Positions 5,061 to 8,630 of a stretch of 36,391 nt of DNA are shown one piece after another; positions within the stretch are counted from its first letter, which is position 1; every line of letters begins with the position of its first letter. Source of the stretch: a virus (Duplodnaviria; Heunggongvirae; Uroviricota; Caudoviricetes); the IMG/VR virus record IMGVR_UViG_2534681704_000005, positions 1-36,391 of that record, one strand, 5' to 3'. The position numbers and the translations under genes were made by a program. The notes under the pieces are model-generated. The model was given only the letters and a program-made list of their open reading frames with translations. It was not told where the DNA came from and searched no databases.

Positions 5061-5423
5061 TTAACGACCTGCTGCGCGGAGTCTTCCGTCAGGTTCACCG
5101 GCAAGAGTCAGCAACTGTCCCTGGTCTTCCTGCAGAATAGTCAGGCGACCACCGCGATTGACATACATCGGCGTTTCGGTGGTGTCTTCTTCGGAAATTT
5201 TCCCGCGGTTAGTCGGGCGAACATATGAGAGTTTGTGTTTGATTTTCACTCGGTTCTCATCAAACGGTTCGATTTCTAGGTTGAGCGAGACCTTACCTTT
5301 GGTTTTCGTGTTCATCACACCGGAAGCGACTTCACTGAGAACTGCGCCGATTTTGGTTTCAAATACGCCGCCGTCCAGCTCCCCGATAAATGCCTGCACA
5401 TCAGTACTGCGTTCGCTAGCCAT
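5061..5423 (-). CDS. Hypothetical early protein, 120 aa (YfdP-like)
   Basis: Start taken at MASERSTDVQAF with SD GAGGAG 7 nt upstream; the 226-aa ORF in the track extends upstream through a low-complexity, likely non-coding stretch. Confidence 0.7.
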   Translation of the reverse strand: MASERSTDVQAFIGELDGGVFETKIGAVLSEVASGVMNTKTKGKVSLNLEIEPFDENRVKIKHKLSYVRPTNRGKISEEDTTETPMYVNRGGRLTILQEDQGQLLTLAGEPDGRLRAAGR

Positions 5424-5471
5424 TTTGCTGCTCCTCATCATATCGACCCTGCAAGGTCGGTTAGTTTCTCC

Positions 5472-5560
5472 ACAAAACAGAGAAGAACACCTGCGGTGAC
5501 TGCCGCCCGGATGGATTGGGTTATGAGCCCGTCGTCCGGTGATGCTCTTCTCTGTTTTGT
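5472..5560. repeat. 18-bp imperfect inverted repeat (ACAAAACAGAGAAGAACA / TGCTCTTCTCTGTTTTGT) flanking a 53-bp GC-rich spacer
   Basis: Arms at 5472-5489 and 5543-5560 match 17/18; lies in a roughly 420-bp ORF-poor GC-rich region upstream of the YfdP-like gene. Confidence 0.5.
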
Positions 5561-5861
5561 AAAAAGGACGGTACCAGCCGGAAGCAAGGGTACAAACTGG
5601 TACCGCCAGGACTACACACAGCATAAAGTTGTGGTGCCGGGTGCCTCCCGGTGCCTGGCGAAGGTTGCACACCAGACGGGTGGGTATCCACAGAAGGTCG
5701 ACTGTCAGCCTCAACCTTAACCCGCGTGCGCTGAGCCGCATTCACCACAACGCTAAGGATTCTCTCTGGTTGAAAATACTTAGCTGTTATGTGCCTGTCT
5801 TTTCACCACTTCAGGCTCGGTGGTATCTTGGTGTTTTCATATAGCCAAGAAGGAAATAGTT

Positions 5862-6053
5862 ATGACCAAAGAAGAAAAAATTCTTTATTTATTCCAACTA
5901 TCGGTTAAGACTCACACTGCATATCAGACTGCTGCCATGACATCAGATAAAAATTACAGTACGTCAGAAAACCCGATAGACGACATAAGCAAGCTTTACG
6001 ATAAGTTCGAAGCACTACTCGATAAAAAGTTTGCTGAGGCTGGGCTTGAGTGA
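5862..6053 (+). CDS. Small hypothetical protein, 63 aa (MTKEEKILYLFQLSVK...)
   Basis: ATG 5862 with SD AAGGAAA 5-6 nt upstream; AT-rich; 3' end overlaps the convergent 58-aa ORF by 39 bp. Confidence 0.4.
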   Translation: MTKEEKILYLFQLSVKTHTAYQTAAMTSDKNYSTSENPIDDISKLYDKFEALLDKKFAEAGLE

Positions 6054-6191
6054 TTGTTGAATAATCGACAAAACCCAACTTAAATTTTCGTCAGTGGGCT
6101 CGATGCCATGTGCGGTGAGCTCACTTTTCAAAACTCCAAGCAATTCAGAGCTGATTTTCAATATATCTGCTTGATTTCTAACTATTCCCAC
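6015..6191 (-). CDS. Small hypothetical protein, 58 aa (GTG start)
   Basis: GTG at 6191 preceded by AAGGGAGG with 5-nt spacer, much better than the ATG at 6221; no recognisable domain. Confidence 0.4.
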   Translation of the reverse strand: MGIVRNQADILKISSELLGVLKSELTAHGIEPTDENLSWVLSIIQQSLKPSLSKLFIE

Positions 6192-6280
6192 TTTTTCCTC
6201 CCTTGGTCTACGCGCGGTCATGTTTTACGCCCAAACGACTTCACAGTTATTGTTTAAAATCTGGACTTTCATTTTGTTCT

Positions 6281-6484
6281 TTAACCTCCAGATTTCCGCG
6301 CATCTAAAGGCGCATTCTCATTTGGTGTGAACTGAATAGTTGTGCTGATATTGATTAATGCCCCGACACACAAGACTACGCACTCAGAGCAGATAGCAAC
6401 TTCATCTTTTCCGCCTTTGGCGATGATTTTTTTTGCCTGCAGCTCGTTTGCGCCACAAAACGAGCATGTGAAATAACGGTTCAT
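6281..6484 (-). CDS. Stand-alone ClpX-type C4 zinc-finger (ZBD-like) protein, 67 aa
   Basis: MNRYFTCSFCGANELQAKKIIAKGGKDEVAICSECVVLC matches the CSFCG...ICxECVxLC pattern of the ClpX N-terminal zinc-binding domain; first ORF downstream of the predicted pL. Confidence 0.6.
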   Translation of the reverse strand: MNRYFTCSFCGANELQAKKIIAKGGKDEVAICSECVVLCVGALINISTTIQFTPNENAPLDARKSGG

Positions 6485-6578
6485 TTGCGCTCTCTTACAC
6501 ATAGTATTTAACGAATCATCCGGTCATTCATACGCCACCGGCGGCTACTTCGTGGGCGTCCTGCCTGTTCGTTGTTTT

Positions 6579-6594
6579 AACACCTTTAAGTTGT
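6579..6594. promoter_or_regulatory. OL operator-like 16-mer AACACCTTTAAGTTGT (15/16 identical to the OR copy)
   Basis: Near-identical 16-mers on both sides of cI; region rich in ACAAC/GTTGT half-site repeats. Confidence 0.4.
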
Positions 6595-6623
6595 AATTTA
6601 GTTGTGGTTTTGAATGTTGTCAA
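6595..6623 (-). promoter_or_regulatory. Candidate pL (leftward early promoter): -35 TTGACA, 17-bp spacer, -10 TAAATT
   Basis: Perfect -35 hexamer on the minus strand (plus 6618-6623), -10 at plus 6595-6600; conserved operator 16-mer lies at the predicted start site. Confidence 0.4.
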
Positions 6624-6686
6624 CAACTTTATGTGGTTTGAACGAGTAGCCAAGGAGTGCAAGGATTATCAAAAAAAGGAGGTTGT

Positions 6687-7577
6687 ATGGAAGACGCGCT
6701 TTACGCTTTTAATTACACACAGAACCGGGACAAGTTATTTGCTAACTTGATTAGCATCATTGATGGAATCATTGCAGATGGAGTTGTCCGTGAAGAGGAG
6801 GTTCTTTACTTAGATACATGGTTACTTGAAGCAAAGCAGATTATCAATAATGGAGTTATAAAAAGTCTATCAGCACGGGTGTCGGATATTCTTGCGGATG
6901 GAATAATCACATCAGAAGAACGTGATGACCTTAAAAATAGCCTTCTCCAAATACAGAGGGAAATTCTTGATATCCCTGAAATTGATTTTTACTCCAAGGA
7001 TGTAGATGTCCATTTACTTAATGGACTATGTAAAGGATTAATTGCTGATCGGAACTTAACTCAAGAAGAAATAAGATATCTTAATTGGTGGCTTGAGCAA
7101 AATGGAGCTTTGAAGAACAACTACCCAGGAAAAAAACTTTATGCACTTGTAAAGGAAATTCTTAAAGATGGTGTTATTACTGAAGATGAGAGTTTAACTC
7201 TACATAAGGCATTAGTAGACTTCACAGGATGTGACTTGGAAAGTGGGGTGGTGGATGGTTTGGCGACTAGGCTGCCTATTGATGTAGGGGCTTCGATAGA
7301 GTTAGAGGGTAAAACCTATTGTCTTACAGGCACTTTTGTTGCAGGAAAGAGAGCCGTAGTTGAAAATTTGATTAAAAATGCTGGTGGGAACATCAGTAGT
7401 GGAATTACTCAAAAGTTGGATTTTTTAGTAATTGGGACGCTTTCCTCCCGTGATTGGAAATTCTCAAGTCACGGAAGGAAGATCGAAAAGGCTATATCTT
7501 ATAGGGATGATAATGGTGCAAAACTTAAAATTATTTCTGAAGAAATGCTTTTCGATGCATTACCAAGTTCGCGATGA
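6687..7577 (+). CDS. Accessory protein with four TerB-like repeats and a C-terminal BRCT-like domain, 296 aa
   Basis: Strong SD AAGGAGG (6677-6683) before ATG 6687; repeats IADGVVREEE, LADGIITSEER, IADRNLTQEE, LKDGVITEDE; C-terminus GKTYCLTGTF...FLVIG...LKIISEEMLFDAL resembles BRCT; AT-rich; 3' end overlaps the cI stop by 18 bp (convergent). Confidence 0.8.
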   Translation: MEDALYAFNYTQNRDKLFANLISIIDGIIADGVVREEEVLYLDTWLLEAKQIINNGVIKSLSARVSDILADGIITSEERDDLKNSLLQIQREILDIPEIDFYSKDVDVHLLNGLCKGLIADRNLTQEEIRYLNWWLEQNGALKNNYPGKKLYALVKEILKDGVITEDESLTLHKALVDFTGCDLESGVVDGLATRLPIDVGASIELEGKTYCLTGTFVAGKRAVVENLIKNAGGNISSGITQKLDFLVIGTLSSRDWKFSSHGRKIEKAISYRDDNGAKLKIISEEMLFDALPSSR

Positions 7578-8246
7578 CCAGAATACCCTACCTATAACAT
7601 GAATTCTGGCTCGTCTATCTTCAAAGGTGAGTATTTCATCTGGGTACTCATCTTTGTTGAAGCTTCTAAGAATCAAGCCACCGTCAGGTAAGTTGATAAG
7701 TATTTTAACCCTTAGCAATACACCATCTCGTACGGCATAAAGATCGCCATCACGAATAGGAACGGTTTGAGAAATATCAACGGCAACAAGATCTCCATTA
7801 TTGAGAACCGGTAATAAACTGTTCCCCCATATTTTTACGATCTTGGCATTAGATGCACATACGCCAGATTTTCTCAAATCTGCTCTTCTTAATGGAAACC
7901 AGTCAATAGCTGATTCAACTATTTCAGCCAGACATCCGTTACCTGCCGATAACTCGACATCTAAAACAGGAATGTTTACGAAAATATCGGGGTCTAATGC
8001 GGTGCTTTCTGCTTCTTTTACAACAAGATCAGGTATGGATGCGTTGTCTTCAATACCAAGTTGTAACCACTTTTGTGATACACCTAAAACTTTTGCAATT
8101 TCTTTAATTTTGCGCGGTTGTAGAGTTTCGCCATTCTCTATTTTGGCTACAGATTGTTGTGAAAGTCCAATTTTTTCAGCTAGTTGAGCTTGGCTCATGC
8201 CAGCTTTCTCTCTACCTATCTTTAATCGTTCTGCCAGTGTTTTCAC
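7560..8246 (-). CDS. cI: CI-type prophage repressor (XRE HTH + S24 LexA-like autopeptidase)
   Basis: N-terminal HTH (MSQAQLAEKIGLSQQSVAKIENGE), Ala-Gly cleavage site (LSAGNG), Ser (WGNSLLP) and Lys (LLRVK) spaced as in LexA/CI; GTG start with SD GAGGGA; divergent from cro. Confidence 0.9.
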   Translation of the reverse strand: MKTLAERLKIGREKAGMSQAQLAEKIGLSQQSVAKIENGETLQPRKIKEIAKVLGVSQKWLQLGIEDNASIPDLVVKEAESTALDPDIFVNIPVLDVELSAGNGCLAEIVESAIDWFPLRRADLRKSGVCASNAKIVKIWGNSLLPVLNNGDLVAVDISQTVPIRDGDLYAVRDGVLLRVKILINLPDGGLILRSFNKDEYPDEILTFEDRRARIHVIGRVFWSSRTW

Positions 8247-8298
8247 AACATATCCCTCTCTTTTTTGATGAGGTTACAACTTTATGTTTTAGCTTTCC

Positions 8299-8314
8299 AA
8301 CACCTAAAAGTTGT
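8299..8314. promoter_or_regulatory. OR operator-like 16-mer AACACCTAAAAGTTGT
   Basis: 15/16 identical to the OL copy; lies between the divergent cI and cro starts with further ACAAC/GTTGT repeats. Confidence 0.4.
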
Positions 8315-8340
8315 GATAAAAGTTGTTAATGTTGTATTCT
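8311..8340 (+). promoter_or_regulatory. Candidate pR: -35 TTGTGA, 18-bp spacer, -10 TATTCT
   Basis: Best sigma70-like match upstream of cro, overlapping operator repeats; hexamers are each 4/6 to consensus. Confidence 0.3.
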
Positions 8341-8381
8341 TGCAACTCGTAACAACTTAACTACCTAAAAAGGAGAAAGCT

Positions 8382-8630
8382 ATGACACCTGAGCAATTAG
8401 CCTTATCGGAGGCAATCGCTCTGGCTGGTGGTCAATCAGAATTGGCTCGGAAGCTCACAGCCAGCAGCGGTCATTTAGTAAAGCAACAACATGTCTGGAA
8501 CTGGTTGAACAGAGAAAAGCGTCCCCCTGCAAAGCTCTCGATATTCATTGAAAAGACCACTGGCATATCAAAAGAAAAATTACGTCCAGATATTTTTCAA
8601 AAGATTAAAGATTCATCAGATGAAAAGTAA
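8382..8630 (+). CDS. cro: Cro-like HTH regulator (YdaS/Cro family), 82 aa
   Basis: SD AAAAAGGAG before ATG; small HTH protein divergent from cI. Confidence 0.8.
   Translation: MTPEQLALSEAIALAGGQSELARKLTASSGHLVKQQHVWNWLNREKRPPAKLSIFIEKTTGISKEKLRPDIFQKIKDSSDEK

What the first reader, a model, noticed from the sequence alone, without database searches (positions are those of the whole stretch)
6687..7577. TerB-repeat / BRCT-like fusion protein in an AT-rich island abutting the cI repressor
Seen: a 296-aa ORF with a near-consensus SD and four roughly 35-aa repeats built on ADG-[VI]-[VIT]-x-EE cores, followed by a C-terminus that reads like a BRCT fold. It is convergent with cI (3' ends overlap 18 bp), sits just right of the predicted pL/OL, and is visibly more AT-rich than the phage backbone (GC not computed). 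Established: in lambdoid prophages the cI-proximal slot (rexAB, sieB-type position) is a recurrent home for lysogen-expressed exclusion or defence genes; TerB-like modules occur in stress systems and BRCT domains bind phosphorylated ligands or DNA ends. Inference: a lysogen-expressed defence or damage-sensing factor whose architecture I do not recognise as a named system. No convincing sigma70 promoter could be placed upstream by eye, so its regulation is open.
Basis: partly seen in the sequence, partly recalled or inferred. Interest (0 to 1): 0.8.

Follow-up and report, generated by a model that had tools for sequence, protein, structure and literature searches.

The report
Repressor-linked BRCT protein of prophages
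A conserved, uncharacterised prophage protein made of two helical modules and a DNA-end-binding BRCT domain, with no enzyme domain, is inherited as one cassette with the phage repressor and is probably made in lysogens, which makes it a testable candidate for a new kind of superinfection defence.

Summary

The N-terminus is a tandem duplication of a ~85-aa four-helix module carrying ADG-x4-E motifs. TerB is the best Pfam family, but only below threshold and only over the motif, so membership is not met.

The gene is not a recent insert. It lies between OL/pL and cI and co-diverges with cI in all 80 viral loci examined. In other temperate phages (K139, P2-like) homologues sit inside the cI-int lysogeny operon. 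Its upstream 60 nt is the window's best match to the cI upstream (putative pRM) region, which suggests repressor-coupled expression.

The same module+BRCT unit is fused to nucleases in PADLOC defence candidates (PDC-S48; a PDC-S37/Hhe-like helicase-nuclease).

Best reading: an accessory protein made in lysogens that binds DNA ends or nicks and probably acts in exclusion or defence. The function is untested.

The parts
6687..7577 (+). 296-aa ORF (stop codon included): two helical modules followed by a BRCT domain
   Evidence: RefSeq WP_000389078.1 'BRCT domain-containing protein'. PHROG 3989 over the full length, E 1.5e-128. pN 0.12-0.21 against pS >= 0.79 in comparisons with relatives.
6676..6682 (+). 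Shine-Dalgarno sequence AAGGAGG, 4 nt before the ATG
   Evidence: Read from the sequence. Conserved in 53 distinct cassettes.
6711..6977 (+). Helical module 1 (residues 9-97): four helices and two A-D-G-x4-E helix-loop-helix motifs (D31/E38, D71/E78)
   Evidence: AlphaFold2 model: helices 10-28, 36-48, 56-69 and 76-93, pLDDT >88. Internal repeat scores. Column conservation: E38 in 82/82, D31 in 78/82, W45 in 81/82.
6987..7238 (+). Helical module 2 (residues 101-184): paralogue of module 1 (D121/E128, D161/E168). Together with the BRCT domain it forms the conserved core of the family.
   Evidence: Short-form relatives (~210 aa) and PDC-S48 match only module 2 + BRCT.
7302..7559 (+). BRCT domain (residues 206-291) of the RFC1/LigA DNA-binding class. 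Phosphate pocket: T214, G215, R222, R255. Family-specific invariant residues: D256-W257, G263, K265.
7560..8246 (-). cI-type repressor (HTH_3 + Peptidase_S24), convergent with the ORF; the 3' ends overlap by 18 bp
   Evidence: Convergent cI lies directly downstream in 80/80 viral loci and overlaps in 77. Its identity to the window copy tracks that of the BRCT gene.
6580..6594 (.). Operator word OL-a, ACACCTTTAAGTTGT, just downstream of the pL -10
   Evidence: A near-identical word, ACACCTAAAAGTTGT, lies at 8300-8314 in OR. Invariant core across 53 cassettes.
6595..6623 (-). pL: leftward sigma-70-type promoter, TTGACA (6623-6618) - 17 nt - TAAATT (6600-6595)
   Evidence: 10 of 12 consensus matches. 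Both hexamers are conserved in relatives.
6623..6637 (.). Operator word OL-b, ACAACTTTATGTGGT, lying between the -35 of pL and the candidate -35 of the BRCT gene
   Evidence: The same word is found at 8276-8290 (ACAACTTTATGTTTT) and, on the minus strand, at 8314-8300. Invariant in 53 cassettes.
6638..6666 (+). Candidate weak promoter of the BRCT gene, resembling the putative pRM: TTGAAC (6638-6643) - 17 nt - TGc AAGGAT (6658-6666). The predicted transcription start is near 6673.
   Evidence: Inference only. The blocks are conserved, with a spacer of fixed length but variable sequence, in 53 cassettes. 6623-6682 has its best ungapped match in the whole window at 8314-8255 (-), directly upstream of cI: 37/60 identical, next best 30, window mean 14.9, sd 3.4, 0 of 20000 shuffles reach 37. 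The consensus promoter scan does not detect it.
8255..8335 (.). OR region with three operator words, including the stretch upstream of cI that is paralogous to 6623-6682

Best explanation
The gene encodes a cytoplasmic protein with three domains and no enzyme domain. Two tandem four-helix modules, TerB-like only at motif level, precede a single BRCT domain of the RFC1/LigA class. In RFC1 and LigA this class of BRCT binds DNA at 5'-phosphorylated recessed ends or nicks.

The gene is a fixed component of the prophage immunity region (OL/pL - BRCT gene -> <- cI - OR - cro) and is inherited together with the repressor.

I think it is most likely transcribed in the lysogen. The candidate promoter is weak and sits next to a repressor operator in the same register as the stretch upstream of cI (the putative pRM).

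In the lysogen the protein would recognise 5'-phosphate ends or nicks on incoming or replicating foreign DNA. Examples are the cohesive ends of injected genomes, nicks and rolling-circle intermediates. It would then block their sealing or processing, or recruit a host nuclease. The outcome would be superinfection exclusion or defence. The helical modules would provide oligomerisation, partner binding or ligand sensing.

Shown here: domain identities, conservation of the phosphate pocket, cassette linkage, lysogeny-operon context in relatives, and nuclease fusions of the same unit.

Inferred: promoter activity and its coupling to the repressor, DNA-end binding, and the exclusion phenotype.
For: - Phosphate pocket: T214 (78/82 T), G215 (80/82), R222 (80/82) and R255 (61 R + 4 K of 82) are conserved. 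In the alignment to human RFC1, T214, G215 and R222 fall on its TG motif and arginine. By position in that alignment I equate R255 with the lysine of the phosphate site, and the four with yeast Rfc1 T166, G167, R174 and K209 (PMC9359705). The yeast residues were not aligned directly.
- Context in relatives: homologues lie in lysogeny operons. Examples are K139 PL-cI-orf2-glo-int, with an annotated lysogenic transcription start; cI->BRCT; cI->x->BRCT->int; Pantoea cI->BRCT->int and Kosakonia HTH->x->BRCT->int; and an integrase-proximal position in Pseudomonas phage Lodos.
- Cassette linkage: convergent cI is adjacent in 80/80 viral loci, and the two genes co-diverge. In E. coli, 47 genomes carry the gene and 48 carry this cI type.
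- The upstream region is paralogous to the cI upstream region and is conserved as a footprint.
- The module+BRCT unit is fused to a DEDDh exonuclease (= PADLOC candidate PDC-S48), to LigA-like HhH2-BRCT, and to an SF1 helicase + MTES_1575 nuclease (PDC-S37/Hhe/Mokosh-like).
- A short form is followed by a thermonuclease gene in Sulfurimonas phage SNW-1.
- A Chlorobium homologue sits next to an EcoO109I-type restriction enzyme and Wadjet JetC/JetD.
- The gene is under purifying selection.
Against: - No experiment on any family member was found in the searchable literature.
- PDC-S48 is itself only a candidate, and the window protein matches just its non-catalytic part.
- The protein has no effector domain, so a killing or blocking mechanism has to be assumed.
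- The proposed promoter matches only 7 of 12 consensus positions plus TGn, and the promoter scan does not call it. Repressor bound at OL-b could just as well repress it, which would make the gene an early lytic gene.
- Here the gene is convergent with cI rather than in its operon.
- The gene is dispensable for carriage of the prophage: there is an internal 715-bp deletion in RMDEC465 and truncated ORFs in L049 and L050.
- Slots next to cI also hold genes unrelated to defence.
Confidence: 0.4

Rival explanations
1. Lysogeny or induction modulator. The protein senses DNA damage (nicks or ends) through its BRCT domain and tunes the switch, for example repressor stability, pL/pR activity or the timing of excision. 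It would not act on foreign phages.
For: - Strict, co-diverging linkage with the repressor over long evolutionary distance, and adjacency to cI and int in unrelated temperate phages.
- A shared operator-promoter organisation with cI.
- Convergent 3' overlap with cI, conserved in 77/80 loci, which would allow antisense or collision effects.
- The BRCT class recognises damaged-DNA structures.
Against: - The association also holds with short HTH repressors that lack an S24 domain, in P2-like Kosakonia prophages, so a role specific to RecA-dependent cleavage is unlikely.
- Relatives occur outside prophages, in defence-island-like contexts and fused to nucleases.
- A prophage carrying an internal deletion of the gene persists in E. 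coli RMDEC465.
Confidence: 0.2
2. Accessory factor for phage DNA metabolism. A LigA-like BRCT adaptor brings host ligase, clamp or repair proteins to phage DNA nicks or cos ends, or protects those ends, and so helps the phage's own replication, circularisation or integration.
For: - The BRCT domain is closest to those of LigA and RFC1.
- Some relatives carry the LigA C-terminal HhH2-BRCT arrangement.
- The gene is adjacent to int in several phages.
Against: - It is located in the immunity or lysogeny module rather than in the replication or recombination modules.
- It is absent from all cultured enterobacterial phages in a collection of 50,697 records, so it is not a core function.
- It is dispensable for carriage of the prophage.
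Confidence: 0.13
3. Anti-defence decoy. A nuclease-free copy of the sensing or targeting part of host nucleases that carry the module+BRCT unit (PDC-S48 or PDC-S37-like). It would compete for the same DNA structures or partners and so protect phage DNA.
For: The window protein is homologous only to the non-catalytic module+BRCT portion of PDC-S48. Phage-borne copies lack nuclease domains, whereas chromosomal relatives carry them.
Against: - In this window the gene lies in the immunity region, outside the leftward pL operon and the rightward cro operon. In several relatives it sits in the repressor/integrase operon. Anti-defence genes are, from general knowledge, usually early lytic genes.
- No PDC-S48-type nuclease was shown to co-occur in the E. 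coli hosts; this was not tested systematically.
Confidence: 0.12
4. TerB-type stress protein, in which metal or tellurite sensing gives the lysogen stress resistance.
For: TerB is the non-BRCT Pfam family matched most often, always below threshold (14 of 82 relatives, best E 9.5e-5; consensus 19 bits). The acidic D/E motif residues are conserved.
Against: - All hits are below the curated cut-off and limited to a ~30-residue motif.
- hhalign against the TerB structure 2JXU gives 1.3% probability.
- No ter-operon genes are nearby.
- The module is always coupled to a DNA-binding BRCT domain.
Confidence: 0.03

Closest known systems
PADLOC phage-defence candidate PDC-S48 (DEDDh exonuclease + helical module + BRCT, ~411 aa)
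   Same: Homologous helical module 2 and BRCT domain. The window protein's residues 119-251 align to profile positions 239-377 of 411 (E 2.4e-7). Exonuclease-bearing relatives of the family match the same model at 1e-30 to 1e-41.
   Different: The window protein has no exonuclease domain; a second copy of the helical module takes its place. PDC-S48 is itself only a computational candidate, and I found no published test.
Vibrio phage K139 Orf2 (lysogenic operon PL-cI-orf2-glo-int) and PHROG 3989
   Same: Same full-length architecture: 33% identity over 95% of the query. PHROG 3989 matches over the full length at 1.5e-128. Both genes lie next to the repressor.
   Different: In K139 the gene is co-directional with cI and inside its operon. 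Here it is convergent with cI and needs its own promoter. Function is unknown in both. The neighbouring gene glo, not orf2, is the K139 gene annotated as involved in phage exclusion.
BRCT domains of RFC1 (p140/Rfc1) and of bacterial NAD-dependent DNA ligase LigA
   Same: Single BRCT domain of the same subclass, with a conserved TG motif, Arg, and basic residue forming the phosphate site (PMC9359705).
   Different: There is no clamp-loader or ligase catalytic domain. NCBIfam LigA models score 20-30 bits against cut-offs of 369-1051. The family has its own invariant S-R-D-W ... G-R-K-I-E signature. DNA binding was not tested.
Lambda rexAB, 933W stk and P22 sieB-type exclusion genes of the immunity region (comparison from general knowledge)
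   Same: Position inside the immunity region between OL/pL and cI, and likely expression coupled to the repressor.
   Different: No sequence or domain similarity. The gene is oriented opposite to cI. No exclusion phenotype is known.
TerB (PF05099; Klebsiella TerB structure 2JXU)
   Same: Helix-ADGxxxxE-helix motifs with conserved acidic residues. TerB is the top Pfam family, but below threshold.

Membership tests
BRCT (PF00533) | Score above the Pfam gathering threshold | tested here: met
   29.0 bits against 21.3 for residues 206-290. 76 of 82 relatives also match.
BRCT (PF00533) | BRCT fold (beta-alpha-beta-beta-alpha-beta-alpha) | tested here: met
RFC1/LigA/PARP1 subclass of DNA-binding single BRCT domains | Conserved TG motif plus Arg and Lys forming the 5'-phosphate site | tested here: met
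   T214, G215, R222 and R255 (K replaced by R) are conserved in the family. The alignment to human RFC1 is, and the residue roles come from PMC9359705.
RFC1/LigA/PARP1 subclass of DNA-binding single BRCT domains | Binding to 5'-phosphorylated recessed or nicked dsDNA | not testable with these tools
   Needs EMSA or fluorescence anisotropy with purified protein.
TerB (PF05099) | Score above the Pfam gathering threshold (24.4 bits) | tested here: not met
   The window protein has no hit at E<=1. The family consensus scores 19 bits and the module consensus 16 bits. Hits below threshold occur in 14/82 relatives and 6/42 modules.
TerB (PF05099) | Fold or profile similarity to a solved TerB structure (2JXU) | tested here: not met
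PADLOC PDC-S48 | Full-length architecture including the N-terminal DEDDh exonuclease | tested here: not met
   Only profile positions 239-377 of 411 are matched. Pfam finds no RNase_T domain. True members such as P0189, P0221 and the L016 protein match from position ~1.
NAD-dependent DNA ligase LigA (the name some sources give to relatives) | Adenylation, OB-fold, zinc-finger and HhH domains; NCBIfam cut-off | tested here: not met
   Only the BRCT part matches, at 20-30 bits against cut-offs of 369-1051. No other ligase domain is found in Pfam.
Immunity-region exclusion genes (rexAB/sieB-type positional class) | Location between OL/pL and the repressor gene | tested here: met
   pL lies at 6595-6623 (-), with operator words shared with OR. 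cI is at 7560-8246.
Immunity-region exclusion genes (rexAB/sieB-type positional class) | Expressed in the lysogen and excludes superinfecting phages | not testable with these tools
   The evidence is indirect only: relatives lie in lysogeny operons, and the upstream region resembles the putative pRM.

The most novel reading that the evidence does not exclude
The module+BRCT protein is a new class of repressor-coupled, nuclease-free superinfection immunity. It would be transcribed from a second repressor-dependent promoter at OL, organised like the one upstream of cI. It would act as a LigA/RFC1-BRCT mimic that captures the 5'-phosphorylated ends or nicks of invading phage DNA and prevents their ligation or replication. 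The same sensor unit would have been recruited repeatedly as the targeting domain of defence nucleases (PDC-S48; PDC-S37/Hhe-like).
Probability: 0.2. Interest if true: 0.75.

Novelty: new variant of a known kind. Interest (0 to 1): 0.55.

Why it matters
The family is large: 2,857 clusters at 50% identity reach E<=1e-3. It has no characterised member, yet it occupies the lysogeny module of unrelated temperate phages (lambdoid, P2-like, Vibrio, Pseudomonas).

If it is a defence or exclusion factor, it would add a mechanism based on recognising DNA ends or nicks without an enzyme. It would also explain what the non-catalytic part of at least two PADLOC candidate systems does.

If instead it tunes the lysis-lysogeny switch, it would be a new widespread component of immunity regions. 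Either outcome can be tested directly with a small cloned fragment (about 6560-7600).

The duplicated operator-promoter arrangement, upstream of cI and upstream of this gene, is also a simple test case for repressor-activated accessory promoters.

Tried and rejected
- Foldseek of the N-terminal model against viral structures (BFVD) gave nothing with E < 0.6. The afdb50 library was not available.
- Literature searches found no study of this family: BRCT + prophage/anti-phage, TerB + BRCT, K139 orf2, PDC-S48, BRCT + repressor/lysogen, BRCT + exonuclease + defence. The K139 control-region paper and the Ter-systems paper are not held in the library.
- The genome-contig scan with the broad alignment failed for lack of a conserved stretch. 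A narrower alignment returned only 11 loci.
- The idea of a recent AT-rich insert was rejected, because the gene shares composition with cI and co-diverges with it.
- The 'empty site' comparison found only an internal deletion, not an empty site.
- The alternative GTG start at 6657 was rejected.
- The consensus promoter scan found no promoter on the + strand. The candidate promoter rests only on the conserved footprint and on paralogy to the cI upstream region.
- No Rfam family other than the tRNA was found in the window.
- The small neighbouring genes (ClpX zinc-finger protein, 68-aa and 63-aa ORFs) have no PADLOC hits and are not specifically linked to the BRCT gene.
Full report
OBSERVATION

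The ORF is real. It runs from ATG 6687 to the stop at 7577 and encodes 296 aa. An AAGGAGG Shine-Dalgarno sequence at 6676-6682 precedes it. RefSeq annotates exactly this product (WP_000389078.1, "BRCT domain-containing protein") in identical E. coli prophages.

The gene converges on a cI-type repressor (HTH_3 + Peptidase_S24, 7560-8246, minus strand), and the two 3' ends overlap by 18 bp.

GC content is 0.379 for the ORF against 0.511 for the window. However, cI (0.399) and the whole 5800-8400 stretch (0.392) are just as AT-rich. The AT-rich unit is therefore the whole immunity region.

The window starts in proA and carries thrW, tRNA-Thr(CGT), at 1369-1444, so the prophage is integrated at thrW. 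The identical immunity cassette also occurs in an e14-like prophage integrated at icd, in strain KE58.

INTERNAL REPEATS AND THE N-TERMINUS

The four ADG-x4-E motifs are present and exceed chance: BLOSUM window scores are 55 and 53, against a shuffle maximum of 33. The real repeat unit is a ~90-aa unit present twice (residues ~9-97 and ~101-184). Each unit holds two helix-loop-helix motifs.

An AlphaFold2 model built on 82 relatives is confident (pLDDT 93.9, pTM 0.91). It shows two four-helix modules followed by a BRCT fold.

I tested the TerB idea in several ways.
- The window protein has no Pfam TerB hit at E<=1.
- TerB is the non-BRCT family matched most often among relatives, but always below threshold: 14/82 full-length proteins (best E 9.5e-5) and 6/42 isolated modules.
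- The family consensus scores 19 bits against the 24.4 cut-off, over profile positions 10-38 of 118 only.
- hhalign of the module profile against the solved Klebsiella TerB (2JXU, sequence verified) gives 1.3% probability.
- A profile search of PDB sequences gives only weak partial matches to EF-hand loops.

I therefore describe the N-terminus as tandem four-helix modules with TerB-like ADG...E motifs. TerB membership is not met. Distant homology remains possible.

THE BRCT DOMAIN

- Pfam BRCT passes its threshold, at 29 bits against 21.3.
- The family profile hits the BRCT domains of human RFC1 (2.4e-8) and of bacterial LigA (7e-7 to 4e-6).
- The NCBIfam hits are only to the BRCT ends of LigA and of an epsilon-like exonuclease, far below their cut-offs.

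In yeast Rfc1, the residues T166, G167, R174 and K209 bind a DNA 5' phosphate, and this BRCT subclass (RFC1, prokaryotic ligases, PARP1) binds DNA (PMC9359705). In the alignment to human RFC1, T214, G215 and R222 fall on its TG motif and arginine. By position in that alignment I equate R255 with the lysine of the phosphate site; the yeast residues were not aligned directly. These positions are conserved in the family: 78/82 T, 80/82 G, 80/82 R, and 61 R + 4 K of 82. DNA-end or nick binding is thus a well-founded inference, but it has not been shown.

FAMILY AND ARCHITECTURES

The protein matches PHROG 3989 (function unknown) over its full length at 1.5e-128. An exhaustive HMMER search of 1.84 billion cluster representatives finds 2,857 relatives at E<=1e-3.

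Among the best 150 representatives:
- 87 have the module-module-BRCT arrangement.
- 30 have module-BRCT only (~210 aa), corresponding to module 2 + BRCT.
- The remainder are truncated forms or carry additional regions.

The conserved core of the family is therefore one module plus the BRCT domain. Additional domains found fused to this core are:
- a DEDDh exonuclease at the N-terminus (P0189, P0221, P0227, L016 protein);
- a LigA-like HhH2-BRCT at the C-terminus (P0161, P0209);
- in one 2,042-aa protein, an SF1 helicase plus an MTES_1575 restriction-type nuclease and DUF3320.

In PADLOC, the exonuclease fusions correspond to the candidate PDC-S48 (1e-30 to 1e-41). The window protein matches only the non-catalytic part of that model, positions 239-377 of 411. 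The giant protein matches PDC-S37, Mokosh helicase models and Hhe.

GENOMIC CONTEXT

In E. coli complete genomes, 47 of 5,426 carry the gene, always overlapping the same repressor gene. The cI type occurs in 48 genomes. The one exception, strain RMDEC465, has a 715-bp internal deletion of the gene, with window 6720-7434 missing.

In 80 of 80 IMG/VR loci (69-100% protein identity) a convergent cI lies directly downstream, and it overlaps the gene in 77. BRCT-gene identity and cI identity fall together: 100/100, 91/93, 83/85, 76/81, 72/78, 69/72. The pair is therefore an old, co-inherited cassette and not a recent insertion.

The gene is under purifying selection, with pN 0.12-0.21 against saturated pS >= 0.79.

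In more distant relatives the gene again sits in the lysogeny module, but co-directional with the repressor:
- K139 has PL-cI-orf2-glo-int, with an annotated lysogenic transcription start.
- A 45%-identical relative lies directly after an S24 repressor gene.
- A short form lies in cI->x->BRCT->int.
- Pantoea has cI->BRCT->int, and Kosakonia P2-like prophages have HTH->x->BRCT->int.
- Pseudomonas phage Lodos has int->lipoprotein->BRCT.

Other relatives lie next to defence-type genes:
- an EcoO109I-type restriction enzyme and Wadjet JetD/JetC in a Chlorobium genome;
- a small RelA_SpoT synthetase;
- an NYN protein;
- a thermonuclease directly downstream in Sulfurimonas phage SNW-1.

No cultured enterobacterial phage in a 50,697-record collection carries the gene.

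REGULATION

A leftward near-consensus promoter, TTGACA-17-TAAATT at 6623-6595, is pL. It is flanked by operator words at 6580-6594 and 6623-6637, which recur in the cI-cro intergenic region at 8276-8314.

A footprint across 53 distinct cassettes shows two invariant blocks downstream of OL-b: GTTTGA(A/T)(C/T)G and TG(C/T)AAGGAT. They are separated by a spacer of fixed length but variable sequence. This fits a weak extended -10 promoter: TTGAAC at 6638-6643, 17 nt, TGc-AAGGAT at 6658-6666.

In addition, the 60 nt from OL-b to the Shine-Dalgarno sequence (6623-6682) have their best ungapped match in the whole window, on either strand, at 8314-8255 (minus). That stretch lies directly upstream of cI. 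The match is 37/60 identical; the next best is 30, the window mean is 14.9 with sd 3.4, and 0 of 20,000 shuffles reach 37. The cI-side stretch is also conserved across cassettes.

Both genes are thus preceded by the same arrangement: an operator, a weak -35, 17 nt, a weak -10, and an ATCAAAAAA-GAGG leader. I infer that the BRCT gene is driven by a promoter like the one upstream of cI, next to a repressor operator and divergent from pL, and is therefore probably co-expressed with cI in lysogens. This is an inference only. Repressor bound at OL-b could instead repress it.

MECHANISM

Shown:
- a protein without enzymatic domains, made of a module pair and a DNA-binding-class BRCT domain with an intact phosphate pocket;
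- inheritance as one cassette with the repressor;
- recurrent placement in lysogeny operons;
- reuse of the same unit as a C-terminal appendage on nucleases of defence candidates.

Inferred: the protein is made in lysogens and binds 5'-phosphorylated ends or nicks of incoming or replicating foreign DNA. It then either blocks ligation or processing, for example by competing with LigA at cos nicks, or recruits a host nuclease. The result would be exclusion or defence (confidence 0.4).

Rivals:
- a modulator of the lysis-lysogeny switch or of induction (0.2);
- an accessory factor for phage DNA metabolism or integration (0.13);
- an anti-defence decoy of nucleases that carry the module+BRCT unit (0.12);
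- a TerB-type stress function (0.03).

COMPARISON WITH KNOWN SYSTEMS AND VERDICT

The protein is a member of the BRCT superfamily, RFC1/LigA subclass, and of PHROG 3989. It is not a member of TerB, LigA or PDC-S48 by their defining features. By position it parallels lambda rexAB-type immunity-region genes, but without any sequence similarity.

I found no functional study of any family member.

I rate it a new variant of a known kind, namely accessory genes of the lysogeny module, related to a computational defence candidate. Interest is moderate, at 0.55. It is a large, conserved, uncharacterised family with a clear and cheap experimental path, but there is no direct evidence of function yet.

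Noticed in passing
window 6284-6502 (-): The first gene downstream of pL encodes a 73-aa protein that consists essentially of a ClpX C4-type zinc finger (PF06689, E 1.4e-10; PHROG 5259, function unknown). A phage copy of the ClpX N-domain alone could interfere with substrate or adaptor recognition by ClpXP.
   Followed up: partly
L020 2860-2900 (E. coli RMDEC465), equivalent to window 6720-7434: A related prophage with an 83%-identical cI carries a 715-bp internal deletion of the BRCT gene and keeps only its first ~33 and last ~140 nt. The gene is therefore dispensable for carriage of the prophage.
   Followed up: yes
L049 2237-2962 and L050 5001-5726: In two IMG/VR contigs the 92%-identical gene is open for only ~242 codons. 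It ends 148 nt before cI instead of overlapping it, which suggests a truncating mutation.
   Followed up: no
window 5800-8400, compared with L001 (KE58, icd) and L003 (CT02, thrW): The same immunity cassette, 99.9-100% identical over the compared stretch, is present in prophages integrated at two different sites: thrW with a CPS-53-like left arm, and icd with e14-like intE/xisE. This is a clear case of modular exchange of the immunity region.
   Followed up: partly
P0236 (2,042 aa, metagenomic representative): A giant protein combines an SF1 helicase (AAA_11/AAA_12), an MTES_1575 restriction-type nuclease and DUF3320 with the module+BRCT unit at its C-terminus. Its best PADLOC matches are PDC-S37, Mokosh MkoA/MkoC and Hhe.
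   Followed up: partly
L013 5923-12656 (Chlorobium MAG): A 40%-identical homologue lies between a phage small-terminase gene and an EcoO109I-type restriction endonuclease gene, which is followed by Wadjet JetD and JetC-like genes. This looks like a defence island on a mobile element.
   Followed up: partly
L022 3429-4486 (Sulfurimonas phage SNW-1): The short-form module+BRCT gene is annotated as 'DNA polymerase' and is followed 3 nt later by a thermonuclease-family gene. This may be a two-gene sensor-nuclease pair, and the annotation is probably wrong.
   Followed up: no
Relatives P0012, P0042, P0059, P0103-P0107 and phage records H5, H11, H13, H15, H17: Many database entries name these ~295-aa or ~210-aa proteins 'NAD-dependent DNA ligase'. 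Only the BRCT end resembles LigA, so these names are misannotations.
   Followed up: yes
L006 (record titled Pseudomonas lundensis I31, 760-kb contig end): A cassette 77% identical to the enterobacterial BRCT-cI pair, with identical operator words, sits in a genome labelled Pseudomonas. This could be horizontal transfer, or a mislabelled or contaminated assembly.
   Followed up: no
window 8255-8335 and 6580-6637: The operator words share half-sites ACAAC/GTTGT separated by 5 nt. There are three copies in OR and at least two in OL, about 1.7 kb apart. The BRCT gene and cI both lie inside the potential OL-OR loop.
   Followed up: partly
window 5061-5741 (-): The 226-aa mechanical ORF here spans what RefSeq annotates in identical prophages as yfdP plus a frameshifted hypothetical gene, so this stretch probably contains a pseudogene.
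   Followed up: no
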